A stretch of DNA of 64,000 nt, from the sequence record PZ445511.1; one strand, written 5' to 3'. The notes beneath the pieces were generated by a model. It worked only from the letters and a program-made list of their open reading frames with translations, was not told the DNA's origin and searched no databases. Source of the DNA: a phage. Positions within the stretch are counted from its first letter, which is position 1. Each line of letters starts with the position of its first letter. The position numbers were made by a program, and so were the translations under genes. Positions 5,271-60,212 of this stretch are shown here, one piece after another.

Positions 5271-7601
5271 ATGAGCCATCGCATCGAAAAAGTAATTAAA
5301 CGTGACGGTACTGTTCAGGACTTTGCTCCTGAAAAACTCAATGATTGGGCTGCATGGGCATGTAAAGATACTGACGTAAGTTGGTCTGCCGTAGTTATGG
5401 CTGCCCTGAAAAATCTACCCAAAGGTGTTGTAGACTCCGATACACTCCAAGATGTGTTAATTAAAGCCGCTGAAGGTCTTATCAAAGACAACCCAGCATA
5501 TGATACTGTAGCAAAGGAATTACGTCTTGCGCAGATGCGTAAACGCCTATATGATTCCTTTGAACCTCCTTCTCTGCGTTTCTTCCACGATCATATGATT
5601 CGTGTTGGCGCCTGGGAAGACATGAGTGCATGGATTAGCGATGATCAGTTTGATGCTCTGAATCAAGTTATTGATCATGATCGCGATCGTTTATTCACCA
5701 GTGGTGGACTGAAACAGTTCTTCGACAAGTATTCCCGTCGTAATATTGCAACTGGTGAAATTTATGAAACCCCGCAGTTTGCCTACATGGGTATGGCAAT
5801 GGCGATGTTATCTCAACCTAACTGGACAATTCTCGATGCAATCGACCTCTACAACGCAATGTCACTCCATAAAATCAACGTGCCGACTCCACCTCTCGTG
5901 GGTCTTAGGAGCAGCGACCGCGGTTTTGCTTCTTGTTGTCTTGTTGATAGTACTGATACCCTCGATTCAATCGACACAGCCGAGCACATCGTCTTCAAAA
6001 TGGTCGCAGCCAGAGCGGGAATCGGGTATCATCTTGAAAGCCGATCAATTGCTGATCCGGTGCGAAATGGGGCATTCCCGCATTCCGGAAAACTGCCATA
6101 TTATCGACACATTGACCGATCAGTAAAAGCTAACACTCAGCAAACCCGTGGTGGTTCTGCTACTGTGTCTTACCCATACTTCGATCCTGAAATCATTCAG
6201 TTGATGCAGGTTAAGCAGCAACGTGCTACAGACGAGAATAAAATCGATAAGATGGATTACTCTCTGAGCTTTAACAACCTTCTGTTAAAACGTTACCTGA
6301 AAAATGAAGATATTACGCTAATGTCCTACTTCTACGCACCAGAAGTTCATGAAGCGTTTTATGGCGAAGATGAGGCTAAGTTTGAAGAAATCTACGTGGC
6401 AGCGGAGAAACGTGTGGCATCTCTTACAAAGATCGACCACGAAGGAAAAACAATTCCAGCAGCTCCTAGAATCTCTGCAAAAGAAATCCTAGATACTTGG
6501 TTACGTATCCGTATGGAAACAGGGCGTATGTATGCTCATCACATTGGTGAATCTAACCGTCATGGTAACTTCCTTGACCCGATTCGTATGACCAACCTTT
6601 GTGTTGAAATTACTCAGCCAACCCGTCCATTCCATCACATTACGGAGCTGTATAAGACCCAAGATCAGTTAGACGATATGCGTCCAGAAGATATTGGTGA
6701 AGTATCTCTGTGTAACTTAGGTGGTGTTGTACTAGGTCGTATGGAATCTCTGGCTGAATGGGAGAAAACTTGCTACATTCTTCTGAAATTCGTTGATACA
6801 ATCATCGAGATTCAGGATTACCCATTCCCAACTATGGAGTACACGGCTAAGAAACGTCGTAACGTTGGTATTGGTCTGATGAACGCAGCAGGTGCAATGG
6901 CAGCCGAAGGTTTGGCTTACGAAGGTGTTGAAGCCCGTAACTGGATTCACCGTGAAGCTGAAAAGCTGTCCTACTTCCTACATAAAGCCTCTGTACGTCT
7001 GGCTAAAGAACAAGGTGCATGTGACTGGTTTAATCGTACTAAACCATCCAAAGGAACTCTGGTAATCGACACGTACAAGAAAACTGTTGATGAACTGGTA
7101 ACTGTAGGTCTAGAAATGGATTGGGAATCTCTGCGTGCAGATATTCTGAAATATGGTATGCGCAACTCTGTTCTGACTGCTCAGATGCCGGGTGAAAGTT
7201 CCTCTGTACTGCTAGGTGTTACTAACTCTATCGAGCCGCCTCGTAAGATTGTATCTATCAAGGGTAGTGCAGTTAATAAAGTAATTGCAATTGCTCCAGG
7301 TGCAACCGATTGGGATACATTAATGAGTTATAAACTGGCTTATGATGTAGATCGTATCGAGTGGATCAAATGGGTAGCAACCATGCAGAAATTCTTCAGT
7401 CAGTCTATCAGTACGAATATGTACTATGACTACACCAAGTTTGAGAATGAAATCATTCCTGGTCCAGTAGTAGTTCGTGATTTCATGACTGCTGTTAAGT
7501 ACGGCTGGAAAACTTGGTACTACGCTAACTTCAACACTGAAAATGGTGGTGGAGCTGGTGAAGAAGCAGCAGGTTGTGCATCAGGTGGTTGTAACCTATA
7601 A
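5271..7601 (+). CDS. nrdA: ribonucleotide reductase class Ia large subunit
   Basis: ORF 5211..7601 (796 aa); ATP-cone-like N-terminus, C-terminal Cys pair; ATG 5271 has AAGGA RBS, 5211 has none. Confidence 0.85.
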   Translation: MSHRIEKVIKRDGTVQDFAPEKLNDWAAWACKDTDVSWSAVVMAALKNLPKGVVDSDTLQDVLIKAAEGLIKDNPAYDTVAKELRLAQMRKRLYDSFEPPSLRFFHDHMIRVGAWEDMSAWISDDQFDALNQVIDHDRDRLFTSGGLKQFFDKYSRRNIATGEIYETPQFAYMGMAMAMLSQPNWTILDAIDLYNAMSLHKINVPTPPLVGLRSSDRGFASCCLVDSTDTLDSIDTAEHIVFKMVAARAGIGYHLESRSIADPVRNGAFPHSGKLPYYRHIDRSVKANTQQTRGGSATVSYPYFDPEIIQLMQVKQQRATDENKIDKMDYSLSFNNLLLKRYLKNEDITLMSYFYAPEVHEAFYGEDEAKFEEIYVAAEKRVASLTKIDHEGKTIPAAPRISAKEILDTWLRIRMETGRMYAHHIGESNRHGNFLDPIRMTNLCVEITQPTRPFHHITELYKTQDQLDDMRPEDIGEVSLCNLGGVVLGRMESLAEWEKTCYILLKFVDTIIEIQDYPFPTMEYTAKKRRNVGIGLMNAAGAMAAEGLAYEGVEARNWIHREAEKLSYFLHKASVRLAKEQGACDWFNRTKPSKGTLVIDTYKKTVDELVTVGLEMDWESLRADILKYGMRNSVLTAQMPGESSSVLLGVTNSIEPPRKIVSIKGSAVNKVIAIAPGATDWDTLMSYKLAYDVDRIEWIKWVATMQKFFSQSISTNMYYDYTKFENEIIPGPVVVRDFMTAVKYGWKTWYYANFNTENGGGAGEEAAGCASGGCNL

Positions 7602-8854: not shown

Positions 8855-9384
8855 TGATAGCAGCAATCTATGCAACTGGGCCGAATGGGGAGTTCGGCCT
8901 CAATGGTAAGCTCCCCTGGGGTTCTTTCAAAGAAGAACTAGATATCTTCTATGCTACATTGGATTCTCTGGCACCTGACAATATTATTGTAGGAGCAGGA
9001 ACTTGGTTAGCATTCCCTGAGACTCTGCAAAAAAGAATACTAGGAGATTCTGACCTATTTATTTATGCAAATAGACCACTACCGAACTCTATAAGATCAG
9101 CTACACGCATAAGCAACATTGGATACCGTCTGCCTGATTTTCTCAAGGAAGAGGTAACTGTAGTATTAGGGGGAGCAACTCTGCTTCTTGAAATGTATGT
9201 CAAAAATCATCTAGATATGGCGTATATCTCTACTGTTACTTCAGCCACACCATTATCTGCTGATGTACATCTGCATCATCATATTACTTTAACTAATTCA
9301 ATGGCAACTAGAATGGACTATGTGGCAGGACAGAATGCAGATAAAACGCTTTCATTCTTACAAGAATTGGTGATATTTAAATGA
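8854..9384 (+). CDS. frd: dihydrofolate reductase-like protein
   Basis: 176 aa; N-terminal IAAI..G..G.LPW motif typical of DHFR; sits between nrdB and thyA. Confidence 0.55.
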
Positions 9385-10235
9385 AGCAATATATTGAAAC
9401 TGGAAAACGTATTCTTGAAGAGGGTGTATGGGTAACGAATCCTAGAACAGGGGTTCGTTGCCTAACCATTATTGATGCAGACTTTACCTTTAACGTAGGA
9501 GCAGGAGAACTGCCGCTAGTAACTACTCGTAAAGCATTTGCTAAACAAGCAATAATGGAAATGATCGGATATCTACGTGGGTACGACTCAGCAGCACAAT
9601 TCCGCACTATTGGTGTTAATACATGGAATGCTAATGCAAATGAAAATATTGCCTGGCTAGGTAATCCATTCCGTAAAGGCGAGGATGATATGGGACGAGT
9701 CTATGGTGTTCAAGGACGTCATTGGACTAATTCTGATGGTATGGTATTTGATCAGTTAGCCAAAGTCTACCATAATTTGAAAAGAGGGATTGACGATCGT
9801 GGAGAAATTTTAACTTTTTGGAACCCTGGGGAATTTCGTAAAGGATGCCTACGTCCGTGTATGCATACCCATCAATTCTCTATTTTAGGTGATACACTAT
9901 ACCTAAACTCTTTCCAGAGGTCTAATGATTTCTTGCTGGGCCAAGTATTTAATATGGTGCAATGCTATGCACTTCTAGCTATTATGGCACAGATTACAGG
10001 TCTTAAGCCAGGTATTGCTCGTCAAAAGATTATTAATCTTCATATCTATGAAGATCAGTATAATGTTCTGATGGAGCACAAGCAATTCGATCGTGAACCT
10101 TTTGCACCTCCTACTTTAGAAATCAATCCAAATATTAGAACTTTGGATGATGTATTAACGTGGGTAAGTAAGGATGATTTTACTGTTCGTGGCTATGAAC
10201 ACCATCCTGCTATTGCATATCCATTTACGGTGTAA
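9381..10235 (+). CDS. thyA: thymidylate synthase
   Basis: 284 aa; N-terminus MKQY..G; catalytic region [11 protein letters not shown] resembles ThyA active-site Cys motif. Confidence 0.85.
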
Positions 10236-48524: not shown

Positions 48525-49406
48525 ATGTATAACTTTAAAGATAAACTAAGACAAAATGCTGGTAAAGGAAAAGCTAAAGAGAACAATAATATTCCTAGTG
48601 CTAAAATATTATCTTTTCCTGAACTAACACAGGAAGAAAAAGATAAACTAGCATTTATGTTCGATGCACTTATAGGATTAAGTGGACGCCTATATTCCAC
48701 TCTTAGTATTAATGAGAAACGTCTAGTAGAGATGTTCTGCAAACGTTATCAAGTTACTTCAAAAGGTAACTCTTATAAAGAAGGTGAAAAAGCATTCACA
48801 GTCTTAAAAATCAGTGCGTATGCACATCGTTTCTTAGTTTATGGATTACAGATGGAATACTTCACCCTCCCACCATTTAAATCATTCCATATCTTTGAAG
48901 ATGAACGAATGAATATTGATGATCTTTATGGAGATACGTACAAATATTCAGGAAGCCCATTCCATGATGCATTAAGAAGCTACCCTACTAGTTACCTACC
49001 AGTTAGAGCATCACAAGGCAAAGCTAGCATCTTTGCTGTATACTCAGGATCTAAAGCATCTGATCTAGAAACTTATATATTTAAAGAGCGTAAATCTGCA
49101 ATTCCAGATGAAGCATTATATAATAATCCACTTCTTCCAGAAGAACCGGAGAAAATTGATGTAACTCCCCCAATCCCATCCGAATCTCAATATTTAGTCT
49201 ATGAAAAACAAGTTAAGTTGTCTCTAGACATTGGGTTGGTTACACCGCTTGCTGCAGCATTCATAAATAAGTATCTAGAAATTCCTGACGAGTTCCATGC
49301 ACGTTATAACACGAATATTCAGATCACAGATGAACTAGTTGCATTAGCAAAAGATACACCTACTGACACTGAGGCGTATCAAAAAGCATACCAAGAGTTA
49401 CTGTAA
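48525..49406 (+). CDS. hypothetical protein
   Basis: 293 aa; last gene before the repeat region. Confidence 0.6.
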   Translation: MYNFKDKLRQNAGKGKAKENNNIPSAKILSFPELTQEEKDKLAFMFDALIGLSGRLYSTLSINEKRLVEMFCKRYQVTSKGNSYKEGEKAFTVLKISAYAHRFLVYGLQMEYFTLPPFKSFHIFEDERMNIDDLYGDTYKYSGSPFHDALRSYPTSYLPVRASQGKASIFAVYSGSKASDLETYIFKERKSAIPDEALYNNPLLPEEPEKIDVTPPIPSESQYLVYEKQVKLSLDIGLVTPLAAAFINKYLEIPDEFHARYNTNIQITDELVALAKDTPTDTEAYQKAYQELL

Positions 49407-49789
49407 GATCCTGCAAGTCTCGGTGCACAATACCTGTACCGAGACTCAAATACAAACTCTCGTTGACAGATAACTAAATGTATGTTATCATAACTCTATG
49501 AGTTAATAAAATTAACCATTTAGAGTTGCCACACAGAAGGTGTGGTGGTTCAGGAATCTTAAATTACTGACTTGTAGCGTAGGTTACGGAGCGACAGGAC
49601 AAGTCAACAGGTAATTTAATAAAGATTACTAGAAACATCACGAGACCTTCTGGCGGGGGCAAAGCTCTATATGAGAACCCTGGGGGGATCTTATACTTAT
49701 ATAAAAACTAATACTGTTGAATAGATAAATTAACGTTCAAGATGATACACTCGGTTGCCGCTCATCTGCTAGGATGGCACAACACTTTC

Positions 49790-50110
49790 TTCTAGACTCC
49801 TAAGTTTCTAGGAAAACTCTCGTCAACTCAGGCGGTTTTCATTGTTCCTAGAAACTCTAGCAATAGGCGGTTAATACAGGGCGGTTATAGGGAGGGCGGT
49901 TATTTCTAGGAGTCATTTTTTGAAAACACATTTCTGGAGATTGCTATCGGATTTGCACATTATGTTTCTAGAAATTTATGGTCGGATTTGCACAATTGCC
50001 TAAGTTTTTAGGAACATATAATCTCCCGAAAATAGCAGCATTATTTCGGGCCGAAGGCCCATGATTGCCTGAGTTTTTAGAGCCACAGGAATTTTCACTT
50101 GTCAAGCTAT
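49790..50110 (+). repeat. short direct repeats (GGCGGTT x4; CT[AG]AGTTT[CT]TAG[AG] x5)
   Basis: seen directly in gene-free region upstream of the iteron array. Confidence 0.6.
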
Positions 50111-50546
50111 TTTGCCCCATTTTGCTAATAAAATTTCGCTTTATCTCCCCCAATCTCAATTCTAGCCAAAACATCCCGCATTATCCCCAAAAACGCAGCA
50201 AACCGGTGCTAAAGCACCATCACCGCTGCTCCTTCCGTAGTTACTCCCAAAATCTCATCGGATTCGCACTTCTCCCCAAACTCACACAATCACACACCCT
50301 CCAATCGAAGTCACAAAAATCTTGTCGGATTCGCACACCTTAACACTTGTCGGTTTTGCACATATTCTAGTAAATCCAGCTGGATTGCATCGCAGTTGCG
50401 GATTGCTGGAGTTTTTAGGAAAATTCATTGTCGGATTCGCACACTATAAAAATATTTGCCATCGGATTTGCACACTACCAAAAATTGTCGGATTCGCACA
50501 TGCACGCTGGCACGTAATCCGTGGGGGCAAATGTCGGATTTGCACA
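49947..50546 (+). repeat. iteron-like array: 9 direct copies of 13-bp TCGG(A/T)TT(T/C)GCACA
   Basis: copies start at 49947, 49982, 50258, 50325, 50350, 50431, 50462, 50488, 50534; irregular spacing; no ORF. Confidence 0.85.
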
Positions 50547-50569
50547 AAAGCGCAGGGCAATTTGCCCTG

Positions 50570-50720
50570 CCTGCCGAAATGCGAATGATAATGAGAATGA
50601 TTCTCTTTTGGGAAGTTGAATGATAATGATTCGCATTTGAGAAGTTGAATGCGAATGAGAACAGTTATCATTTGACTACCGGAATACGAATGAGTCGCAT
50701 AATGAGAATGATTTGCATTT
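50570..50720. repeat. AT-rich GAATGA(G/T)AATGA repeat block with partial palindromes
   Basis: gcgaatgataatgagaatgattc, gaatgataatgattcgcattt, cgaatgagtcgcataatgagaatgatttgcattt. Confidence 0.7.
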
Positions 50721-50752
50721 AGAAAGCGAAGTGAGAAACACTGTTATTTAAG

Positions 50753-50761
50753 TTATCCACA
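50753..50761 (+). promoter_or_regulatory. DnaA box (TTATCCACA, perfect)
   Basis: exact 9-mer; two TTATCAACA variants at 50815-50834. Confidence 0.6.
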
Positions 50762-50844
50762 GGTTTATTAACAGCACGATCTGACTTGACAAAATCCTAG
50801 TGATTTTGAGGCGTTATCAACAGACTTATCAACAGGTTATTCTA

Positions 50845-50860
50845 CTGTATATTTATACAG
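50845..50860. repeat. 16-bp palindrome CTGTATATTTATACAG (copy 1)
   Basis: identical copy at 54516-54531. Confidence 0.8.
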
Positions 50861-50893
50861 TATTACTGCGTAGTGAATAACTCTAATATAGCC

Positions 50894-50922
50894 CTAAAAC
50901 GCTCTGTAACTCATTCTAAGCG
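50894..50922 (+). repeat. 29-bp direct repeat CTAAAACGCTCTGTAAC..TTCTAAGCG (copy 1)
   Basis: 27/29 identical to 54943-54971. Confidence 0.8.
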
Positions 50923-51232
50923 ATTTAATTTTGGAGGAGGTATTTTAATAAGGGGAAATTTGAGGAAGGCCAGAAAAAGCGGGGCGCAACTATCGGCCCC
51001 GTTATTATTAGTCTGGTAGTCGATGTGTGATCTTTTCGCTTTCGCCGTAGGAGTCTACCAAATGTTGATAGTAACCATCGTTATCATAAATCACTTTATC
51101 ATAACGCCATCGCTCCTAGAATGAGAATGATTATCAATATCATTGTAAAGCCATTACCAAATCGTAAACGCTGGGAATGTTTCCCAGCGGTATTATTAGA
51201 TTTATGGCTTTGTGTTTTTCGCCACCAGCTAT

Positions 51233-51445
51233 TCACGGTTTTAAATTCTCTATAGTTAATTTTGCGCGAATAGTGATTCCATATAATTCGCCTCCCTTGT
51301 TTCTTACATCAGGTAGCCAGTCCCACAATTCAGGGTATCCGCTTAAAATTCCTAGCGATGCAAGATTAGCAATAAAACCGGCTATAGTAACCGCTTCCAG
51401 TGAAATAGTTACACGATTATTAATAACTAAAGTAAACTTTTTCAT
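51233..51445 (-). CDS. hypothetical protein (cassette gene 8)
   Basis: 70 aa; start overlaps upstream stop (ATGA). Confidence 0.4.
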   Translation of the reverse strand: MKKFTLVINNRVTISLEAVTIAGFIANLASLGILSGYPELWDWLPDVRNKGGELYGITIRAKLTIENLKP

Positions 51446-51786
51446 TGCGACACCTTTCGAAACGCTGTTTCGATACTTTCAGCGGTTGATTGAATATACG
51501 CGCCTTTCATAATCAGGCGCTCTGTACACACTTTGCGGAAAATGTCAATAAATTCATTTTCATTTTCCGCTATTAACGCTTCCCCCATAACCTGAACATC
51601 ACAAGACCCAAAAGTTAAAAATTGAAATGCTAGTTCACGGGCGACAACGGCAGAAATTTTATAATGTGCTTTGCCCTCATAGATATTAACCACGCCTTTA
51701 TAAACTGGTGAAAGCTGATTTAAATAGTTTGCTAATAATGCCGGACGGCAATTAGTTACAAATCGGTTGCCCTCGTAAATTACCAT
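51442..51786 (-). CDS. hypothetical protein (cassette gene 7)
   Basis: 114 aa. Confidence 0.5.
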   Translation of the reverse strand: MVIYEGNRFVTNCRPALLANYLNQLSPVYKGVVNIYEGKAHYKISAVVARELAFQFLTFGSCDVQVMGEALIAENENEFIDIFRKVCTERLIMKGAYIQSTAESIETAFRKVSQ

Positions 51787-51913
51787 CTGCCAACCTCCCT
51801 AGCAAATAGCCAAAACAAATCGAATAAACGCCTAACAGTGCAGGATCACTTTTAAAGTAGGTAGCAATAAAGCCACCAGCAGCACCGAGCAAAATAGAAA
51901 ATAAAGTTTTCAT
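51752..51913 (-). CDS. small membrane protein, 53 aa (cassette gene 6)
   Basis: hand-translated MKTLFSILLGAAGGFIATYF...; below ORF-track cutoff. Confidence 0.35.
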   Translation of the reverse strand: MKTLFSILLGAAGGFIATYFKSDPALLGVYSICFGYLLGRLADGNLRGQPICN

Positions 51914-52122
51914 AATACCCCACGAAACGCAGCGTAAAAGGTGGCAAAGTGTTTAACCGTTTCGGCTACCAAATTGCCGCGCTTGTCAAATTTCTTATCT
52001 GTAACACGGAAAGCGTTTTTGTTGCGTGCTACATATTCGATTTTACAATCTGGACGCTCGAACGTGTTAACATCCACCAGCTTAAAACCTTTGGAACGGG
52101 CAAGGGAAACATTCTTTAACAT
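51910..52122 (-). CDS. hypothetical basic protein (cassette gene 5)
   Basis: 70 aa. Confidence 0.45.
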   Translation of the reverse strand: MLKNVSLARSKGFKLVDVNTFERPDCKIEYVARNKNAFRVTDKKFDKRGNLVAETVKHFATFYAAFRGVL

Positions 52123-52124
52123 TT

Positions 52125-52274
52125 TTATTCCCCTTTACCAGTCATACAGCCTAACAAGTAAGAAAACCCCGCGATACCTGCTCCGATAATAACCACGTGA
52201 ACGCCGAAAGCTATTACAAACAGCGATAAAATAGCGCCCAAGATACTAGCCAGAATAGATCGAAAAATAACCAT
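52125..52274 (-). CDS. small membrane protein, 49 aa (cassette gene 4)
   Basis: hand-translated MVIFRSILASILGAILSLFVIAFGVHVVIIGAGIAGF...; TAGGAGG RBS. Confidence 0.4.
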   Translation of the reverse strand: MVIFRSILASILGAILSLFVIAFGVHVVIIGAGIAGFSYLLGCMTGKGE

Positions 52275-52381
52275 TTTAACGCCTCCTAGAAATTAGGGAA
52301 AATTTTCAGTCCACCGTTTCGGTGTAAAGGCATTATAACAAAAAAGGCCGCCGATTAGGGCGACCTTTACAAAACTTTACA

Positions 52382-52876
52382 TTAGACTATTTCTAATGCT
52401 TCCACACCGAAACAGCGTTTTAGTTCTTTCTGTAAAACGGCATATTCATCCCAACGGGAATTATCAGGAATATAAACAAGCTGTTTTAATCGATTTGCAT
52501 ATAATAACGCCTTGTTACCAATTATTTCCGCGCCACCGTGTTTAATAATTAATTTCATAACGGTATTAATAGGATCGCCGCCATTTACATAAATACCGGA
52601 TTTACTCAATTGATAATGATAAATACTCGCATAAACATTATCATTTTCAATCCATTCCCCTGTTTCTTCATCTTCTTCCCCATCACTACCGAAACGAGAA
52701 GCATTATCATATGCGTGTTCGTTTGCGAAAGCGTCCAGATCACAGCCAGCGGGAACAAAATGTTCCTCCGTCCAGCCTTCCCCACAATAGCCAGTGTGAC
52801 AATCAACTAAAACGATCATATCGTGTTTAGCTTCATTCACACTTTCTAGAGAAAAGCCATATTTTTCTTCTGACAT
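52382..52876 (-). CDS. hypothetical acidic protein (cassette gene 3)
   Basis: 164 aa, Asp/Glu-rich central segment. Confidence 0.55.
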   Translation of the reverse strand: MSEEKYGFSLESVNEAKHDMIVLVDCHTGYCGEGWTEEHFVPAGCDLDAFANEHAYDNASRFGSDGEEDEETGEWIENDNVYASIYHYQLSKSGIYVNGGDPINTVMKLIIKHGGAEIIGNKALLYANRLKQLVYIPDNSRWDEYAVLQKELKRCFGVEALEIV

Positions 52877-52889
52877 AACTAGACTCCTA

Positions 52890-53198
52890 TTAATTAGCAG
52901 GGAAATAAAGAGAATTTGCTACACTGTAAAATACTTTATTTAAGAAAATTACGTCATCACGGACTATTTCATCCATTCCATAATCCAGCAAAGTTTCGTC
53001 TACAAAAATACATAGCCAGCCATAACCACGATCAAAGAAAGCATGATAATTATTAGCGCTTTCTACATGTTCCCATAAAAAGGGACGGCCTTGTTTTTCC
53101 CATATAGGAATATTGCTTTGATCGTCCGAATAATTAACATGGGGGCTATTCGGCATTTTTTCGGCTAATTGCGTCAACATGATTTGATTCAGTTGCAT
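52890..53198 (-). CDS. hypothetical protein (cassette gene 2)
   Basis: 102 aa. Confidence 0.5.
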   Translation of the reverse strand: MQLNQIMLTQLAEKMPNSPHVNYSDDQSNIPIWEKQGRPFLWEHVESANNYHAFFDRGYGWLCIFVDETLLDYGMDEIVRDDVIFLNKVFYSVANSLYFPAN

Positions 53199-53264
53199 AA
53201 TAAGTAGTCTCCTAACAATTAACAGGGAAATAGTAAAGCGGGAAATAATCCCCGCTAGTAATTA

Positions 53265-54266
53265 TTACTCTGTTTCGGCGCTTTGGGTAAAGGTAGAAAT
53301 GTCAATGCCTTTTACCATTTCATCGATCATTTCAGCAATATTGAAACTCTGTACCATTTCCAGCATTGCCGCTTCCATTGCCGCGCCTGCTACCGCTTTC
53401 GCTTTCTGATTAGTCGGGGCGTACTGGTCAACCGCTACGCTTAACAGGTTAGCGATCACTACGCGACCAATCGGAGTATCAATATAACCTTTAATCATAA
53501 ACGGCGCTTTTTTCGCCGCTACTTTTGTGATTTGAGTCAGTGCAATTTTACCCGCTTCCAGTTTTGCAGCATTTACAACAGCGGATTTATTAGCAGCAAC
53601 GATAGAAGATACTTTAGTCATGATATTTCCTTTATTTTCAGTAGTTTGCGCATTTGCGCTTGAAGTTTGAGAGTTTACAGCCTGTTTTGTTACGTTGTCA
53701 ACTGGTTTTAGTGTAAATCCAGCATTTGCAACGTTTGATTCATTCCCATAACATAAATAATCGTCAGGGATCAACATGTTACCGCTAGCGCGTTCAAAAC
53801 ATAATACGCCAGTTGTTTCGATTGCGTCACTATCCGCACCTTTATAGCTTGACGATAATTCCCGCCAGATACTATTTAATAACGATCCGACACTATCCAG
53901 TCTGATATTATTTATTTTTGTTGCTGTTACCTGCTCTTTTTCTTGCACGTTATATAATCGCGCAATGTAACCACTATGAGACTCACTATAACCAACAATG
54001 ATAAAATCAATATCAGTTCCCCGACTATTACGGAAAATGTGATAATCACGGTTGAAAATTACTAGCGCCCTTGTCTGGTCTAGTAATAGCGTGAAATCAT
54101 CGACTGAATAATGAGTATCATTATTATCTAAAATTTCATCGTGAATCTTTTCAACCATTGCCGCCGTATGTTGTACGCTTGCCGCACTACTACCATCTAG
54201 CAGGTTGCGCAAACTACCCTTAATAATAGTGGCGTTTGCTGGTACTGCAATTCTTACAGTAGACAT
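53265..54266 (-). CDS. hypothetical protein (cassette gene 1)
   Basis: 333 aa; Ala/Lys-rich C-terminal third; no recognisable motif. Confidence 0.6.
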   Translation of the reverse strand: MSTVRIAVPANATIIKGSLRNLLDGSSAASVQHTAAMVEKIHDEILDNNDTHYSVDDFTLLLDQTRALVIFNRDYHIFRNSRGTDIDFIIVGYSESHSGYIARLYNVQEKEQVTATKINNIRLDSVGSLLNSIWRELSSSYKGADSDAIETTGVLCFERASGNMLIPDDYLCYGNESNVANAGFTLKPVDNVTKQAVNSQTSSANAQTTENKGNIMTKVSSIVAANKSAVVNAAKLEAGKIALTQITKVAAKKAPFMIKGYIDTPIGRVVIANLLSVAVDQYAPTNQKAKAVAGAAMEAAMLEMVQSFNIAEMIDEMVKGIDISTFTQSAETE

Positions 54267-54454
54267 TTCTTTGTCTCCCTCGTTAATCAGTGAGTGAATG
54301 ATATAGATAATTGTTCGCTAGGGGCAAGAAAAAAGAAAAGGTTTTTTATTCCTTGCCTACTGCCCGTTTTTATGATAATCGCGCGTTTTCTATTTCTAGC
54401 TCTCTGTAAGCGTACACAAGGCTTTATTATAATAAGGGTCACACTGAGAAAACC

Positions 54455-54474
54455 GTCTAGAATCGATTCTAGAC
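54455..54474. promoter_or_regulatory. 20-bp perfect palindrome GTCTAGAATCGATTCTAGAC (operator-like)
   Basis: exact inverted repeat in divergent control region. Confidence 0.7.
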
Positions 54475-54515
54475 GCCTTAAAATCGACATCCTTATAATA
54501 TGCTACCAGTTTACC

Positions 54516-54531
54516 CTGTATATTTATACAG
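54516..54531. repeat. 16-bp palindrome CTGTATATTTATACAG (copy 2)
   Basis: identical to 50845-50860. Confidence 0.8.
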
Positions 54532-54553
54532 TAGGATAACCTGTATATAAGTC

Positions 54554-54611
54554 TGTGGATAAGTCCTCATATAGTCGCCTATTACGTCAAGTTATTTTGT
54601 GCTGTGGATAA
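54554..54611 (-). promoter_or_regulatory. two perfect DnaA boxes (TGTGGATAA at 54554-54562 and 54603-54611)
   Basis: exact reverse-complement 9-mers 41 bp apart; third 8/9 box at 54888-54896. Confidence 0.6.
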
Positions 54612-54942
54612 CTTTGGGGATAAGTTAAATGATAGTGGTTCTCACTTAGCCCGATAGTTTCTCATAGTTATTATTTCCCATTAATTTATGTGTATATTAT
54701 ATATTATGAAATAGTTAGTTGGCTAATAGGATTTTCCGTGATTAATAGTCTGCTAATGATAACGCATGTTTCAATCCACCAGCGTGATTATCATCCTAGC
54801 AACTATTAGAGTGCTAATGACCTGATACACGTCCAGACTTATTTGTCAATGAAAAATAACAGCAGAAAATACTTTTTTGAAAAATCAAGTGGATAACTCA
54901 TTAAATTTCATTTTTGCTTTTTGTATAAGTTATTAACAGGGT

Positions 54943-54971
54943 CTAAAACGCTCTGTAACGCGTTCTAAGCG
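54943..54971 (+). repeat. 29-bp direct repeat (copy 2)
   Basis: 27/29 identical to 50894-50922. Confidence 0.8.
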
Positions 54972-55374
54972 CCTTTGATGAAAAGCTATCCCATCATAAG
55001 GGGAGGTGTCCGAAAACCTCACCACGAGGATTTTAGATTTTGTCAAGTAGGCAAGAGCAGAAATAAATGAAAAAATTACTTGCTAAACTGCTTATTTGTG
55101 TGTTATTCGTGCGCCCGTTTCATTAAATTTAGTGCGCCGCTGGACGTGGTGCGGTGGCGTTTGTCTTTACGTTTCTTTACAAAAATAAGGTTGCGCCCTT
55201 CTCGGTATTCTCCTATTATTTATCACGTAGGGCGGCAATGACGAACTACACGGCGGGGATAACAGCGATTGACAGTCTGTTTGACCTTTCAAAACCCTGC
55301 CATGCTCTTTAAAAATTAGGGAACATCTTAAAGCCTATCGGCGGTAAACTTAGATATTATAAGGAATCGACGAT

Positions 55375-55584
55375 ATGAAACAAACGCTTTTGATCACTGG
55401 CAAGCCTATCAAGTCACTTGATAGCAGAACAAAAAATTTGTTGACAGTAGCGCAACGATCTGTAAAATACAGATTCAAGCAATACAAGAAAGGCAAGCAA
55501 CAAGGGCTGGAAATGGTGTGGCGTAATATAATGATTGATTTATATAACTCATATCAAATAGAAAAAAGTTTAAAAAACGCTTGA
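55375..55584 (+). CDS. hypothetical small basic protein (may be spurious)
   Basis: 69 aa; contains internal TTGACA-16-TAAAAT promoter-like motif. Confidence 0.3.
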   Translation: MKQTLLITGKPIKSLDSRTKNLLTVAQRSVKYRFKQYKKGKQQGLEMVWRNIMIDLYNSYQIEKSLKNA

Positions 55585-55609
55585 CACGCTAGCCGATAGG
55601 TTTTAAGAT
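55581..55609 (+). promoter_or_regulatory. putative promoter (TTGACA-17-TAAGAT)
   Basis: consensus -35 with weaker -10. Confidence 0.35.
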
Positions 55610-55815
55610 GTTCCCTAGTTTTTAAAGAGTGATAACTTGATAAAATTTGACGGTCGGCACTTACCATAATGTGCCCCGCCCCCTAACTGGGATATAGCGG
55701 CCCGCGTGGAGTTCTTTAAATTTATTATATTGGCTAGCGGATTATAATCTAATAGCGTTTCAAAGTATCGAGGCGCTATTGTGGAATAATCCCCCAATAA
55801 ACCGGAGTATTAAAA

Positions 55816-56067
55816 ATGCAAAACGTTATCACCGCACCGAAAGTAGGTCAATCCGTTTTTATTCCTTTCGTTACTAAAACGGATGAATTAACTGGAAAAG
55901 CTGAACGTATTAAAGGTGCGGCGCTTGATCCCTTTGATAAAATTGAAGCGGTATACGCGGAAACGGAACGCAGTAACAACGGCAAGCCAATTTATAACGT
56001 TCGCGTTAAATCTGGCGACGTTGTAAAAATCATTCAGAAAGATGATAAATGGCAAGCTATTAGCTAA
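55816..56067 (+). CDS. hypothetical protein
   Basis: 83 aa. Confidence 0.5.
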   Translation: MQNVITAPKVGQSVFIPFVTKTDELTGKAERIKGAALDPFDKIEAVYAETERSNNGKPIYNVRVKSGDVVKIIQKDDKWQAIS

Positions 56068-56166
56068 TTAGTGTTACTTTTATATTCCCCTGAAATATGG
56101 GGAATATATGGATTAACATTAGTTAATCATAATCCCTTAATTAATAATTGAATGGAGTATTAAATT

Positions 56167-56583
56167 ATGTCTAACGTTAAAACCGAAAAAACCGCAAAAT
56201 TCTCTTGGAACGAAGAAAACACCGAAAAGGCTGTTTCTATGTATTCTGAAATGGTCGCTAAAAGCGGAATTGAATTTGCTAACAGTGACGGCTTGAAAGA
56301 AATCGCCGCCGCCGTTGGTGCTGCTAGTCCGGTGTCTGTACGTTCTAAATTGACCAGTGCAAAAGCCTACCAGAAAAGCGACAAGCCGCGTAAAGTTGGC
56401 GGCGGTAGCTCTGTCCGTAAAGCTCACTATGTGCGCGTCATTGCTAAACATGCCATTGATAGCGGCATTGTAAAAGACGCTGACGATCTGGCAAGTCTGG
56501 AAAGTGCTAAACTGGAAACACTGGACGCCGTAGCGCAATTATTAGGCGTAGCGGAGGAAGTAAAACAGGCCGCAGGTGAATAA
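56167..56583 (+). CDS. A2: pre-early A2-like protein
   Basis: 138 aa immediately upstream of A1-like gene; assignment by size and position only. Confidence 0.4.
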   Translation: MSNVKTEKTAKFSWNEENTEKAVSMYSEMVAKSGIEFANSDGLKEIAAAVGAASPVSVRSKLTSAKAYQKSDKPRKVGGGSSVRKAHYVRVIAKHAIDSGIVKDADDLASLESAKLETLDAVAQLLGVAEEVKQAAGE

Positions 56584-56969: not shown

Positions 56970-58634
56970 ATGAATATTTCCGCAGAAAAACAAGCTCAAA
57001 TTTTGAAAATGGCCGCAGATTTTAACTTCTACGGTAAGCGTTTACGCGCTACTAAATTGGAAGTTTGCGACGATATTTCAAAAGCTGTTTATGATACGCC
57101 GAAACATTCAACCGCAATTTGTGATTGGCTGGAAGCAAACAAGCCAGCGAAACCGAAAGCGGCAAAAGCTGAAAAGGCGATTAAAAATGATGATCGCCCC
57201 GAAGCGGCGGGAATTGTTTCTAGTACCGTTGAACAATGGGAAGTTAAATCCGGTCGCCGTTTTATTCTAACGTCGATTCAAAATAATACTTTCCCTCATA
57301 AAAACTTTTTAGCAAGTCTAGAAAAATTCGCTGAATATTGCGGCGCTGAATTGCTGATTAGTAAATTCATTTATAATAAAAATGGATTCCAGAACGGGGA
57401 AGGGGCAAACGGTATTAAATACGATCCCGCATTTGATAAATATGTTTGTGATAAAAACGTATTTTTAAATAACCGCCGCTTTGCTTTCATGGCTGAAATT
57501 AACGTTTTGCCAACGGCAGATTATCCGCTTTCAGGATTCGCAGAAACTGCCACCGCTTTAAATATTGAAGGTCTGGCAATTGGTCACGCAAAAATTACCG
57601 CCGAAAGCGTGCCAGCTTTAAAAGGTGAAGTAGTGCGCCGTATGTATTCAACCGGAACGGCTACACTTAAAAACTATATTCAGCAGAAAGCAGGTCAAAA
57701 AGCTGAGGCTTTACATAATTACGGCGCTTTGCTGGTAGAATTTGACGACGACGGCGAATTTTTCGTGCGCCAGCTTGAAACAATGGACGAAAGCGGAATG
57801 TTCTATGATCTGAATATTTGCGCCACTCCTAGCGGTTGCAAAGAAATTACCGGACACATTTTAGGCTTACAATATGGCGATATTCACGCCGAAAAATTAG
57901 ATGATGAATGCGCCGTCGCTTCATGGGCTAGTGAAAATTCATTGCTTGATATTCTTAAACCGAAATATCAGTTTATTCATGATGTGCATGATTTTACATC
58001 GCGTAACCATCACAACCGCGCTAGTGGTGTATTCCTTGCTAAACAGTACGCCGCAGGACGTGATAAAGTTATTGATGATCTCATTGATACCGGTCGCGTG
58101 TTGGAATCTATGGAACGTGAATTTAGTCAAACAATCATTGTGGAATCCAACCATGATTTAGCTCTTTCACGCTGGCTTGATGATCGTAACGCAAACATTA
58201 AGGACGATCCCGCAAACGCCGAGCTATACCACAGCCTAAACGCTGCGATTTACGCCGCAATTGCAAAACAAGATGATACCTTTAACGTATTGGATTACGC
58301 GCTTAGAAACGTTGCAGGTTGCGAATTTAACGCTATTTTCCTGACTACTGACCAGTCATTTAAAATCGCTGGCATTGAATGTGGCGTACATGGTCACAAC
58401 GGCATTAATGGCAGTCGGGGCAATCCTAAACAGTTTAAAAAGTTGGGACGCCTTAACACTGGTCACACTCACACGGCTAGCATATACGGCGGCGTTTATA
58501 CCGCTGGCGTTGCTGGTAGTCTCGATATGGGTTACAACGTGGGCGCGTCAAGCTGGACGCAAACGCATTTAATTACCTATGCAAACGGGCAACGTACTTT
58601 GATTGATTTCAAAAACGGTAAATTCTTTGCATAA
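56970..58634 (+). CDS. A1: pre-early A1-like metallophosphoesterase
   Basis: 554 aa; phosphoesterase motifs GDIHAE, HDVHD, HTHT; size fits my recollection of T5 A1. Confidence 0.6.
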   Translation: MNISAEKQAQILKMAADFNFYGKRLRATKLEVCDDISKAVYDTPKHSTAICDWLEANKPAKPKAAKAEKAIKNDDRPEAAGIVSSTVEQWEVKSGRRFILTSIQNNTFPHKNFLASLEKFAEYCGAELLISKFIYNKNGFQNGEGANGIKYDPAFDKYVCDKNVFLNNRRFAFMAEINVLPTADYPLSGFAETATALNIEGLAIGHAKITAESVPALKGEVVRRMYSTGTATLKNYIQQKAGQKAEALHNYGALLVEFDDDGEFFVRQLETMDESGMFYDLNICATPSGCKEITGHILGLQYGDIHAEKLDDECAVASWASENSLLDILKPKYQFIHDVHDFTSRNHHNRASGVFLAKQYAAGRDKVIDDLIDTGRVLESMEREFSQTIIVESNHDLALSRWLDDRNANIKDDPANAELYHSLNAAIYAAIAKQDDTFNVLDYALRNVAGCEFNAIFLTTDQSFKIAGIECGVHGHNGINGSRGNPKQFKKLGRLNTGHTHTASIYGGVYTAGVAGSLDMGYNVGASSWTQTHLITYANGQRTLIDFKNGKFFA

Positions 58635-59477: not shown

Positions 59478-60212
59478 ATGAATCAAGTCAACATGAATAT
59501 TACCCGCACTTTCCCGCATATTTCCCGCGTTATGATTTGGGATTTAGACGGGACAATCATTAATTCATTCCATCGTGTAGCGCCTTGCTTTGATGATAAC
59601 GGGAATTTAGATTTAAATAAGTATTCCCGCGAAGCCTGCAAACATGAATTAATTATGCAGGATTCCTTATTACCATTGGTTGAATATATGCGCCAATGTA
59701 TGAATGATCCCAATACCTTAAACCTTATTTGTACCGCTCGCTTAATGGGTAAATCTGATTATTATTTCTTGCGTAAACAAAGTCTAAGAGGGCGCGGAAA
59801 TAGTAATATTCGCGTATTTTCCCGCGATACATTACATAAATACTTTGATGCAAATAAGGTTAGTGAAATATATCACAGCAAAGACGCAGTATATAAAAGC
59901 TATTACTTTGAACTGTTTAAACAGCTATATCCTAACGCTGATTTTACGATGATTGATGATCATAAAGGCGTATTATCAGCAGCAGCAAACGCAGGATTTA
60001 AAACGCTGGACGCTCAAGCTGTTAACGATATCCTATCAATTGGGGTAACATTGATTGGTGAAACCTTTATTGATGAATCGCTTGATGATGATAACGATTA
60101 TCAATTCCTAGCCGAACGTTTAAAAATGTGTTGGGAAGGTATGACCGAGGAAGAACGCGCAGAATATAGTACCACTCCGCAACAGTTCATCGACAAATTA
60201 AAAGTTGCCTAA
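59478..60212 (+). CDS. dmp: HAD-superfamily phosphatase, 5'-deoxyribonucleotidase-like
   Basis: 244 aa; HAD motif IWDLDGTI; size fits T5 Dmp. Confidence 0.6.
   Translation: MNQVNMNITRTFPHISRVMIWDLDGTIINSFHRVAPCFDDNGNLDLNKYSREACKHELIMQDSLLPLVEYMRQCMNDPNTLNLICTARLMGKSDYYFLRKQSLRGRGNSNIRVFSRDTLHKYFDANKVSEIYHSKDAVYKSYYFELFKQLYPNADFTMIDDHKGVLSAAANAGFKTLDAQAVNDILSIGVTLIGETFIDESLDDDNDYQFLAERLKMCWEGMTEEERAEYSTTPQQFIDKLKVA

What the first reader, a model, noticed from the sequence alone, without database searches (positions are those of the whole stretch)
50753..54971. The cassette is bracketed by near-identical regulatory modules with DnaA boxes
The same elements occur on both sides of the cassette: the 16-bp palindrome CTGTATATTTATACAG (50845 and 54516), a 29-bp direct repeat CTAAAACGCTCTGTAAC..TTCTAAGCG (50894 and 54943, 27/29 identical), TTATTAACAG, and perfect DnaA boxes (50753; 54554 and 54603). 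Direct repeats flanking a gene block can mark a recombination-delimited module, a duplicated origin/promoter unit, or sites where host DnaA is recruited.
Basis: seen in the sequence. Interest (0 to 1): 0.6.

Follow-up and report, generated by a model that had tools for sequence, protein, structure and literature searches.

The report
T5 injection-stop repeats with LexA boxes
The two "modules" are the already-described inverted repeats with DnaA boxes in the first-injected DNA of T5-like phages, but their shared palindrome is a near-perfect binding site for the host SOS repressor LexA, which I did not find reported and which gives a new, testable handle on how these phages pause DNA injection.

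Summary
Every listed element is present at the stated coordinates. [quoted passage not shown] The two modules (50726-50860 and 54516-54650) are a 135-bp INVERTED repeat, 76-85% identical. They are orthologous to T5's IRD'-spacer-IRC' (injection-stop region) and IRC-spacer-IRD, known since 1987; Davison (2020) proposed that DnaA binds them to halt DNA transfer. New points here:

- The 16-mer is the core of a consensus LexA operator (19/20 and 17/20 matches). It outscores the recalled E. coli SOS boxes and is unique in the 64 kb.
- It lies next to DnaA boxes throughout Demerecviridae, down to Vibrio and Proteus phages with 32-43% A1 identity.
- The block between the modules is mosaic (1.6-4.6 kb). 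It is flipped in Sugarlandvirus, My1 and one other lineage.
- The 29-mer occurs 29/29 in R6K-type conjugative plasmids near their origin, and in unrelated phage contigs. Its binding partner is unknown.

No mapped or convincing promoter overlaps the boxes, so function remains inferred. Verdict: a known structure with a new LexA reading. Moderate interest.

The parts
50726..50860 (.). Left module. Orthologue of T5 IRD'-spacer-IRC' (Repeat Region 3, injection-stop candidate).
   Evidence: Inverted-repeat arms I1 and I2. 86% identical over 211 nt to T5 9341-9551, annotated 'injection stop signal (iss)' (H58).
50753..50773 (+). Outer DnaA pair: TTATCCACA, then ggt, then TTATTAACA (3-bp gap).
   Evidence: Paired boxes 3 bp apart as Davison describes.
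50786..50791 (+). Conserved TTGACA hexamer in the spacer. No -10 partner.
50814..50834 (+). Inner pair of variant DnaA boxes: TTATCAACA, then gac, then TTATCAACA.
   Evidence: highly conserved columns.
50843..50862 (.). LexA-operator-like box TACTGTATATTTATACAGTA (T5 'palindrome D').
   Evidence: 19/20 to the consensus. 26.0 bits, above all 21 recalled E. coli SOS boxes. Identical core in T5. Conserved across Demerecviridae.
50894..50922 (+). 29-mer, left copy: CTAAAACGCTCTGTAACTCATTCTAAGCG. Three phased sub-repeats of about 10 nt.
   Evidence: D12. Relatives in T5, other phages and plasmids.
50975..51005 (-). Hairpin plus T-run that ends the minus-strand pre-early operon (position of T5 palindrome C / terminator).
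   Evidence: Read from the sequence. T5 annotates a terminator at the equivalent site.
51233..54266 (-). The 'cassette': eight pre-early ORFs (equivalents of T5.011-T5.017). Includes a DUF7566 protein (53265-54266) and the Ung-dependent nickase homologue (51910-52122).
54298..54327 (-). Promoter-like site (TTGCCC-18-TATCAT) with an A/T-rich upstream tract, at the position of T5's annotated promoter upstream of gene 011.
   Evidence: T5 annotations. Preprint statement.
54454..54475 (.). Palindromic hairpin CGTCTAGAATCGATTCTAGACG, at the position of T5 IRB' (a diverged inverted 29-mer-like element).
54514..54533 (.). LexA-operator-like box CCCTGTATATTTATACAGTA.
   Evidence: 17/20 to the consensus, 22.9 bits. 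Conserved.
54516..54650 (.). Right module. Orthologue of T5 IRC-spacer-IRD (Repeat Region 2).
   Evidence: I1, I2. T5 repeat annotation 6022-6152.
54542..54562 (-). Inner DnaA pair: TTATATACA (variant) and TTATCCACA, 3 bp apart.
54585..54590 (-). TTGACG hexamer in the spacer, counterpart of 50786-50791.
54603..54623 (-). Outer DnaA pair: TTATCCACA and TTATCCCCA, 3 bp apart.
   Evidence: TTATCCCCA is listed as a T5 variant box.
54888..54971 (+). Third, truncated unit (T5 Repeat Region 1 / IRB). Contains a DnaA-like TTATCCACT(-) at 54888-54896, TTATTAACA at 54930-54938, and the right 29-mer copy at 54943-54971.
   Evidence: D12. 88% conserved in Klebsiella phage IME260. 29/29 identical to R6K-type plasmids.

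Best explanation
The two modules are the conserved inverted repeats of the T5-family terminal repeat, the first-step-transfer (pre-early) DNA. The left one is IRD'-spacer-IRC', in the injection-stop region. The right one is IRC-spacer-IRD, in the divergent promoter region. Each is a composite landing pad for host DNA-binding proteins: two pairs of DnaA boxes, 3 bp apart within each pair, separated by a spacer of about 51 bp, and 8 bp further in a consensus LexA operator. An associated 29-mer lies nearby.

Proposed mechanism: when the first 8% of the genome enters, host DnaA and a LexA dimer load onto these sites. This forms a nucleoprotein complex on the last DNA to enter before the pause. The stop-side module is the universal, functional copy and takes part in holding or timing DNA transfer and/or pre-early silencing. 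The promoter-side copy is an accessory duplicate. Its homology to the first has allowed the intervening pre-early gene block to invert during evolution.

Shown: identity with the T5 repeats, motif quality, deep conservation, variable and invertible content. Inferred: actual DnaA and LexA occupancy. Speculative: the link to the injection pause, and the idea that LexA self-cleavage after A1-driven host DNA degradation acts as a timer.
For: Identity with the T5 repeats:
- The window is about 99% identical to Epseptimavirus S147.
- Synteny is early genes, then module, then T5.011-017-like block, then module, then A2-A1-dmp.
- The left module is 86% identical to the region T5 annotates as iss (H58).
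- Davison's description matches element for element.

LexA operator:
- These are the only two CTGT-N8-ACAG sites in 64 kb.
- Matrix scores are 26.0 and 22.9 bits, against 11.7-24.4 for 21 E. coli SOS boxes. The next window hit is 13.6 and the shuffle maximum is 16.9.

Conservation without selecting on the motif:
- All A2-anchored IMG/VR loci with enough upstream DNA carry the box with at most one core mismatch.
- A1-anchored Erwinia, Proteus and Vibrio phages (A1 32-65% identical) have their top hits, 20-29 bits, in the pre-early non-coding DNA. Most lie within about 30 nt of DnaA boxes; two lie beside a promoter-like hexamer instead.
- In Vibrio D386 the box centre changes (ATATCCAT) while the CTGT/ACAG arms persist, as in real SOS boxes.

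A host rather than phage factor is favoured because the motif stays constant while A2 and A1 fall to about 33% identity.

Experimental context:
- Davison cites a 1979 report of a second FST band near the second module.
- T5 deleted from hegG to 017, which should remove the promoter-side module, is viable with small plaques.
Against: - No binding data exist for DnaA or LexA on this DNA. A 2023 paper states that functional studies are lacking.
- LexA is cytoplasmic, and a protein bound inside the cell has no obvious way to stop DNA entering.
- In the window and in T5 the boxes do not overlap any mapped or convincing promoter, so classical operator function is unsupported.
- Extra palindrome copies in My1, L051 and Vibrio phages have an ATGT half-site that scores at noise level for LexA (13 bits). 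This hints that the feature under selection may be TGTATA..TATACA rather than the LexA core.
- From my own recollection, genome-wide host screens with T5 recover fhuA but not recA or lexA, so LexA cleavage is unlikely to be essential.
- The SOS-box matrix was built from sites recalled from memory.
Confidence: 0.55

Rival explanations
1. The palindrome, the 29-mer, or both are binding sites for a phage pre-early protein. The most obvious candidate is the A2 DNA-binding protein, acting with A1. A1 and A2 control both resumption of DNA transfer and shut-off of pre-early transcription. The match to the LexA consensus would then be coincidence or mimicry.
For: - The elements sit at the two places where A1/A2-dependent events occur: the stop region and the pre-early promoter region.
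- In My1, L051, Vibrio and Proteus phages a palindrome lies 2-15 nt upstream of a TTGACA hexamer facing A2/A1.
- The ATGT-half copies are poor LexA sites but keep TGTATA..TATACA.
- A2 has conserved basic residues across the family.
Against: - A 19/20 match to one particular host operator is very unlikely by chance.
- The motif is invariant while A2 drops to 33% identity.
- A2 has no detectable similarity to LexA or to any DNA-binding family.
- The 29-mer occurs in plasmids and unrelated phages that share no protein with this phage. For that element this points to a host factor.
Confidence: 0.25
2. Duplicated regulatory (promoter/operator) unit. Each module would contain a weak promoter controlled by LexA and DnaA. 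It would drive an unannotated transcript, either outward across the DnaA boxes or inward into the 29-mer region, or modulate the cassette and A2-A1 operons.
For: - -10-like hexamers lie 15-23 nt inside each box (TAATAT at 50885; TATTAT/TATAAT at 54494-54500).
- Weak promoter-like matches overlap or flank the boxes.
- In Proteus phage 1 a 27-bit box abuts a TTGACA hexamer, and in D386 one lies 9 nt from TTGGCA.
- In L065 the 29-mer follows TAATAT, as in the window.
Against: - Promoter-like matches are only about twice the shuffle expectation, and none near the boxes exceeds 10/12.
- The annotated or characterised T5 promoters lie at least 170 bp away.
- The stop-side box is downstream of the operon terminator, with no gene to regulate.
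- No known RNA family matches.
Confidence: 0.2
3. Replication origin or origin-like unit. DnaA-box clusters next to AT-rich DNA and iterons (seven TCGGATTCGCACA repeats at 50258-50546) would act as in iteron plasmids.
For: - DnaA boxes plus iterons plus AT-rich repeats are present.
- The 29-mer is shared with the origin region of R6K-type plasmids.
Against: - T5 origins were mapped near the genome centre, and replication genes are not on FST DNA (Davison).
- No initiator gene is present in the cassette.
- The promoter-side module appears dispensable in T5.
Confidence: 0.07
4. The repeats exist to recombine: an invertible or exchangeable pre-early cassette, delimited by recombination.
For: - The cassette is in the opposite orientation in Sugarlandvirus, My1 and L051, relative to both flanks.
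- This is confirmed at the DNA level for IME260.
- The inner flanks are mosaic between the two sides.
- The content is variable.
Against: - Orientation is fixed within genera, so inversion is rare.
- No recombinase is encoded in or beside the cassette.
- Indel boundaries lie mostly inside the cassette.
- Some Vibrio phages and Davison's 'Type 4' phages keep only the stop-side module, so the pair is not required.
Confidence: 0.08

Closest known systems
Bacteriophage T5 IRD'-spacer-IRC' / IRC-spacer-IRD inverted repeats (Repeat Regions 3 and 2 of the terminal repeat; candidate injection stop signal). Heusterspreute 1987, Wang 2005, Davison 2015 and 2020.
   Same: Same genomic position, same element order, 86% sequence identity. 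Same paired DnaA boxes 3 bp apart and a spacer of about 51 bp. Same 'palindrome D'. This is the same feature in a sister genus.
   Different: Nothing structural. T5 has an HNH endonuclease gene inserted between Repeat Regions 1 and 2, which this phage lacks. The published descriptions I could read do not identify the palindrome as a LexA operator.
E. coli SOS boxes (LexA operators, e.g. umuDC, recA, sulA, colicin promoters)
   Same: CTGT-N8-ACAG with an AT-rich centre and TA flanks. The score equals or exceeds validated sites.
   Different: Not positioned over a -35/-10 of a known promoter in this phage. It sits in a strictly virulent phage and is paired with DnaA boxes.
LexA-controlled mobile elements (CTXphi rstA promoter, coliphage 186 tum, Bacillus phage GIL01, colicin plasmids)
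   Same: A mobile element carries host LexA operators and so couples its behaviour to the host SOS state.
   Different: Those are temperate or plasmid systems in which LexA represses a defined promoter that governs induction. Here there is no lysogeny and no defined target promoter.
DnaA-box clusters outside origins (datA, DARS1/2) and at oriC
   Same: Closely spaced, oriented DnaA boxes with variant low-affinity sites, which suggests cooperative DnaA oligomer binding.
   Different: No evidence of an unwinding element or an effect on the DnaA nucleotide state. The cluster is present on transient phage DNA.
Phage invertible segments (Mu G, P1 C, Salmonella Hin)
   Same: A gene block flanked by inverted repeats, found in both orientations.
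   Different: No invertase gene. The repeats are about 135 bp of diverged homology rather than 26-34-bp crossover sites. Orientation is fixed per lineage.

Membership tests
T5-family FST inverted repeats (IRC-spacer-IRD / IRD'-spacer-IRC') | Lies in the terminal-repeat pre-early region of a Demerecviridae genome, flanking the T5.011-017-type block, next to A2-A1-dmp. | tested here: met
T5-family FST inverted repeats (IRC-spacer-IRD / IRD'-spacer-IRC') | Pair of inverted repeats of about 131 bp with a spacer of about 51-52 bp between the IRD and IRC parts. | tested here: met
   (I1 and I2, 50726-50860 against 54516-54650). Ungapped 211-nt alignment to T5 9341-9551 implies the same spacer length (H58).
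T5-family FST inverted repeats (IRC-spacer-IRD / IRD'-spacer-IRC') | Consensus and variant DnaA boxes in pairs separated by 3 bp, about eight in total. | tested here: met
   Four boxes in each module; see the parts list.
T5-family FST inverted repeats (IRC-spacer-IRD / IRD'-spacer-IRC') | Acts in cis as the injection stop signal. | not testable with these tools
   Not demonstrated for T5 either.
LexA operator (SOS box) | 20-bp TACTG(TA)5CAGTA-type sequence with a CTGT-N8-ACAG core. | tested here: met
   19/20 and 17/20 matches.
LexA operator (SOS box) | Score within the range of validated sites and above the genomic background. | tested here: met
   26.0 and 22.9 bits against 11.7-24.4 for the SOS boxes; background is 13.6 or lower. 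Caveat: the matrix was built from sites recalled from memory.
LexA operator (SOS box) | Overlaps or abuts the promoter of a regulated gene. | tested here: inconclusive
   No convincing promoter at the boxes in the window or in T5. A box does abut TTGACA in Proteus phage 1 and lies 9 nt from TTGGCA in Vibrio D386.
LexA operator (SOS box) | Bound by LexA; expression or behaviour changes on SOS induction. | not testable with these tools
   Needs EMSA, ChIP and host mutants.
DnaA-dependent replication origin | DnaA-box cluster with an adjacent unwinding element and, for iteron replicons, an initiator gene. | tested here: inconclusive
   Boxes and iterons are present. No initiator gene is present. 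T5 origins were mapped elsewhere, according to the literature.
Site-specific invertible segment (Hin/Gin/Cin type) | Adjacent invertase gene and short crossover sites. | tested here: not met
   No recombinase among the cassette or flanking proteins.
Recombination-delimited exchangeable cassette | Breaks in homology between relatives coincide with the flanking repeats. | tested here: not met
   Most breakpoints are internal, for example near 51104/51235/51441, 52124/52270 and 53701/54187.

The most novel reading that the evidence does not exclude
A whole family of strictly virulent phages uses the host SOS repressor LexA, together with DnaA, bound to its first-injected DNA as a checkpoint. LexA occupies the stop-side and promoter-side operators on entry. 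Its RecA-stimulated self-cleavage, triggered by A1-driven host DNA degradation, then helps release the pause in genome transfer or resets pre-early transcription. The associated 29-mer, shared with R6K-type plasmid origin regions and with unrelated phages, would be the site of a further, unidentified host factor used by incoming mobile DNA.
Probability: 0.12. Interest if true: 0.8.

Novelty: already known. Interest (0 to 1): 0.42.

Why it matters
How T5 stops after injecting 8% of its genome has been an open question for about sixty years. The only molecular proposal for the stop signal (DnaA boxes) is untested. If the best-conserved palindrome in that signal is a top-grade LexA operator, conserved from E. 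coli to Vibrio phages, there is a second specific candidate that is easy to test. Purified LexA, lexA(Ind-) and lexA(Def) hosts, and T5 genome editing are all available. If LexA binds but has no effect, that in turn narrows the search to phage A1/A2. The cassette inversion and the plasmid-shared 29-mer are smaller leads on how the non-coding DNA of incoming elements evolves.

Tried and rejected
- **Promoter scans:** scans of both intergenic regions gave only weak matches at the boxes, about twice the shuffle level. I judged them unconvincing.
- **Rfam:** an E-value scan of 49400-56200 gave one sub-threshold hit inside the cassette and nothing at the modules or the 29-mers.
- **29-mer as an RNA hairpin:** rejected by inspection. 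The two differences between the copies are not compensatory.
- **A2 as a LexA-like protein:** no Pfam or PDB similarity. I did not model its structure, because homologues from fetched loci cannot be submitted and a single-sequence model would be weak.
- **Shared regulator between phage and the 29-mer-bearing plasmids or chromosome:** no significant tblastn hit.
- **29-mer core motif:** CTAAAACGC with one mismatch is not significantly enriched in the window (22 against 15.7 expected).
- **Genome-wide scans for the 29-mer:** 0 and 1 hits in the species-representative genomes, 8 in the viral contigs. Too few to define a context class.
- **Per-column conservation among A2-anchored loci:** uninformative, because the set is dominated by close relatives. 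I replaced it with distant A1-anchored loci.
- **Literature:** no paper links T5 or T5-like phages to LexA, and no paper contains the sequences verbatim. Davison 2015, Wang 2005 and Heusterspreute 1987 could not be read.
- **Inversion breakpoints:** placing them from the inner flanks failed, because those flanks are themselves mosaic between the two sides.

Full report
**1. What the window is**

The 5-kb region is 98.9% identical to Salmonella phage S147 (Epseptimavirus, Demerecviridae), and 538 T5-like records match it. Annotation of S147 and of phage bastian, plus tblastn with the window's ORFs, give this order on the + strand:
- early genes (+)
- about 1.6 kb of non-coding DNA
- eight small minus-strand ORFs at 51233-54266, which are T5.011-T5.017 equivalents and include the Ung-dependent nickase homologue
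- about 1.1 kb of non-coding DNA
- A2 (56167-56583), A1 (56970-58634) and dmp (+)

**2. Checking the observation**

All reported elements are present at the stated coordinates.
- The two CTGT-N8-ACAG matches and the three perfect DnaA boxes are the only ones in the 64 kb. On their own these counts are only marginally above shuffles: 18/100 and 6/100 shuffles reach them.
- The 27/29 direct repeat is far beyond chance.
- The important correction is that the main similarity is inverted. Arms 50807-50860 / 54516-54569 are 85% complementary and arms 50726-50795 / 54581-54650 are 76%.
- Each arm holds two pairs of DnaA or variant boxes with 3-bp gaps, a TTGAC(A/G) hexamer in the spacer, and the palindrome 8 bp inside the inner pair.

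**3. Identity with known T5 features**

T5's Hangzhou record annotates the following:
- inverted repeats C and D (6022-6060, 6112-6152)
- D' and C' (9332-9372, 9424-9462)
- palindrome D (9330-9349)
- IRB and IRB'

The Moscow record annotates 9140-10149 as the injection stop signal. The window's left module aligns without net gaps to T5 9341-9551 at 86% (H58). T5 carries the same 16-mer at 6137 and 9332.

Davison's 2020 preprint makes these points:
- These repeats, Repeat Regions 2 and 3, are conserved in 25 T5-like phages.
- They carry about eight DnaA or variant boxes, in pairs 3 bp apart, with a constant 52-bp spacer.
- Membrane-bound DnaA is proposed to hold the DNA there.
- The distance between the repeats varies from 1851 to 4258 bp.
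- The ORFs between them are poorly conserved.

A 2023 paper states that functional tests are lacking. The finding as written is therefore a rediscovery.

**4. The palindrome is a LexA operator by sequence**

TACTGTATATTTATACAGTA (50843-50862) matches the SOS-box consensus TACTG(TA)5CAGTA at 19/20 positions. CCCTGTATATTTATACAGTA (54514-54533) matches at 17/20.

I scored them with a matrix built from 21 classical E. coli sites. The site list is recalled from memory, so small errors are possible. Results:
- the two boxes score 26.0 and 22.9 bits
- the training sites score 11.7-24.4
- the next best position in the window scores 13.6
- the best score in shuffled windows is 16.9

Davison's paper never mentions LexA, SOS or promoters. 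Four literature searches, including verbatim sequence strings, found nothing. The older subscription papers could not be read.

**5. Conservation**

To avoid selecting on the motif, I anchored on proteins.

An A2 alignment retrieved 45 IMG/VR loci.
- Every locus with enough upstream DNA has the box at the inner end of the stop-side module.
- Nearly all also have it at the promoter-side module.
- There is at most one core substitution, TTGT or CTGG, the latter as in the ruvAB box.

A1-anchored distant relatives give top matrix hits of 20-29 bits in the pre-early non-coding DNA. These are Erwinia KEY (65% A1 identity), Proteus phage 1 (43%) and Vibrio phages D386 and Chester (about 32-34%). Most hits lie within about 30 nt of DnaA boxes. 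One box in Proteus phage 1 and one in D386 instead sit beside a promoter-like TTGACA or TTGGCA hexamer.
- In D386 the centre differs (ATATCCAT) while the arms persist.
- Vibrio JSF12-type phages have one full module.

A host factor whose specificity is constant across Gammaproteobacteria explains this better than a co-evolving phage protein does. It does not exclude a phage protein.

**6. A complication**

My1, L051 and Vibrio phages carry additional palindromes with an ATGT half-site, which score about 13 bits for LexA, i.e. noise. These are arranged as a 29-mer-like element, then the palindrome, then 2-15 nt, then TTGACA, facing A2/A1. In Proteus phage 1 and D386 the box at that position is a good LexA site.

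This keeps two rival readings alive. One is a promoter-associated operator. The other is a phage-protein (A1/A2) site. A2 itself resembles nothing known.

**7. Promoters**

In the window, the promoter-like site for the cassette is at 54327-54298. It matches the position of T5's annotated gene-011 promoter. The strong TTGACA promoters are at 55441 and 55581. None overlaps a box. The stop-side box lies beyond the operon's terminator. Classical repression is therefore not supported in this phage.

**8. The block between the modules**

Across 31 distinct configurations the box-to-box distance is 1606-4640 bp. The genes for p333, p164, p102, p49 and p53 come and go. Homology breaks are mostly internal.

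In Sugarlandvirus (IME260, Roth39, L048), L051 and My1, the p333 and p164 homologues lie on the same strand as A2/A1 and the early genes, with p333 next to the stop-side module. In IME260 the p333 DNA aligns in reverse while both modules align forward. Davison described these phages as having the region "replaced" by ORFs read the other way. The homology shows that at least part of it is an inversion.

The inner flanks are mosaic between the two sides, so breakpoints cannot be placed more precisely than at or near the modules. No recombinase is present.

T5 deleted from hegG to 017 is viable with small plaques. If that deletion is contiguous, it removes the promoter-side module, so this copy is dispensable in the laboratory.

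**9. The 29-mer**

It looks like three phased sub-repeats of about 10 nt: CTAAAACGC | TCTGTAACGC | ATTCTAAGCG. In My1 the same element reads CTAAAACGC TCTAAAACGC ATTCTAAGCG.

Related copies accompany the palindromes in every lineage examined. Unexpectedly, it also occurs elsewhere:
- The right-hand version occurs 29/29 in MOBP/MPF_T conjugative plasmids of about 30-37 kb. It lies inside the non-coding region upstream of the replication initiator gene, about 600 bp from R6K-type 22-bp iterons.
- An 87% match over 46 nt lies in an iteron-bearing non-coding stretch of an integrated element in three E. coli chromosomes.
- It occurs in unrelated viral contigs. One of them (L070) has LexA-like palindromes on both sides of it.

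No protein is shared between these contexts and the phage, and no RNA family matches. What binds the element is unknown.

**10. Mechanism and verdict**

Best supported: the modules are host-factor landing pads (DnaA pairs plus a LexA operator) on FST DNA. The stop-side copy is the conserved, functional one, and the second copy is an accessory inverted duplicate.
- Occupancy by LexA and DnaA is a strong inference from motif quality.
- Involvement in the transfer pause, in pre-early silencing or in SOS-timed release is hypothesis.

The finding itself is already known. The LexA reading, the inversion and the plasmid-shared 29-mer are new observations of moderate interest.

Noticed in passing
window 51233-54266; loci L006, L007, L048, L049, L051, L052/L053: The pre-early gene block between the two modules is inverted, relative to both flanks, in Klebsiella Sugarlandvirus phages, Pectobacterium phage My1 and one further lineage. 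The p333 and p164 homologues lie on the A2/A1 strand, and the IME260 p333 DNA aligns in reverse. The literature described this as replacement by other ORFs.
   Followed up: yes
window 50894-50922 and 54943-54971; L060 2503-2531; L061 3001-3046; L063, L065, L069, L070: The 29-mer is not T5-specific. An exact 29/29 copy lies near the R6K-type iteron origin of conjugative plasmids of about 30 kb. An 87% copy lies in an iteron-bearing region of an integrated E. coli element. Copies also occur in unrelated phage contigs, one of them flanked by LexA-like palindromes. No shared protein was found and the binding partner is unknown.
   Followed up: partly
window 50586-50717 and 51122-51142 (also 60089-60103): The AATGAGAATGATT repeats (T5 'DRC') resemble Fur boxes. 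TGATAATNATTATCA with up to 3 mismatches gives 27 matches against 9 expected (0/100 shuffles reach 27). Seven of them cluster beside the left module, including TGAGAATGATTATCA at 51122 with one mismatch. Another one-mismatch site lies at 60089.
   Followed up: partly
window 50258-50546: Seven copies of a 13-nt iteron, TCGGATT(C/T)GCACA (T5 'DRD'), lie outside the left module. Their ATTTGCACA core is one mismatch from the relaxed DnaA consensus TTWTNCACA.
   Followed up: no
window 50845-50860 compared with the same site in L011-L049: The two central bases of the stop-side palindrome flip between TT and AA among close relatives, while the arms stay identical. The promoter-side copy is almost always TT. 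A two-base change of this kind suggests small hairpin-type inversions or gene conversion rather than point mutation.
   Followed up: no
window 55305-55342 and 55592-55629: A 38-nt inverted repeat, 95% complementary (T5 IRA/IRA'), brackets the first of two strong promoter-like sites (TTGACA-16-TAAAAT at 55441). It overlaps the second (TTGACA-17-TAAGAT at 55581). These are probably the P-H22 and P-D/E20 equivalents, inside or overlapping the 69-aa DUF7416 ORF.
   Followed up: no
L053 7055 and 7259; L051 2009, 7107 and 7311; L054 9184; L057 6914; L058 7939: In distant relatives, extra copies of the palindrome (often with an ATGT half-site) follow a 29-mer-like element. They precede a TTGACA (or TTGGCA) hexamer by 2-15 nt. 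A conserved GTGCGCCCGTT-like motif follows, and it is also present in the window near 55107-55120.
   Followed up: partly
L005 (Yersinia phage phiR201) 7123 and 7224: The stop-side LexA-type box is duplicated 101 bp apart, giving three boxes in total. This is consistent with the reported duplication of IRD' in this phage.
   Followed up: no
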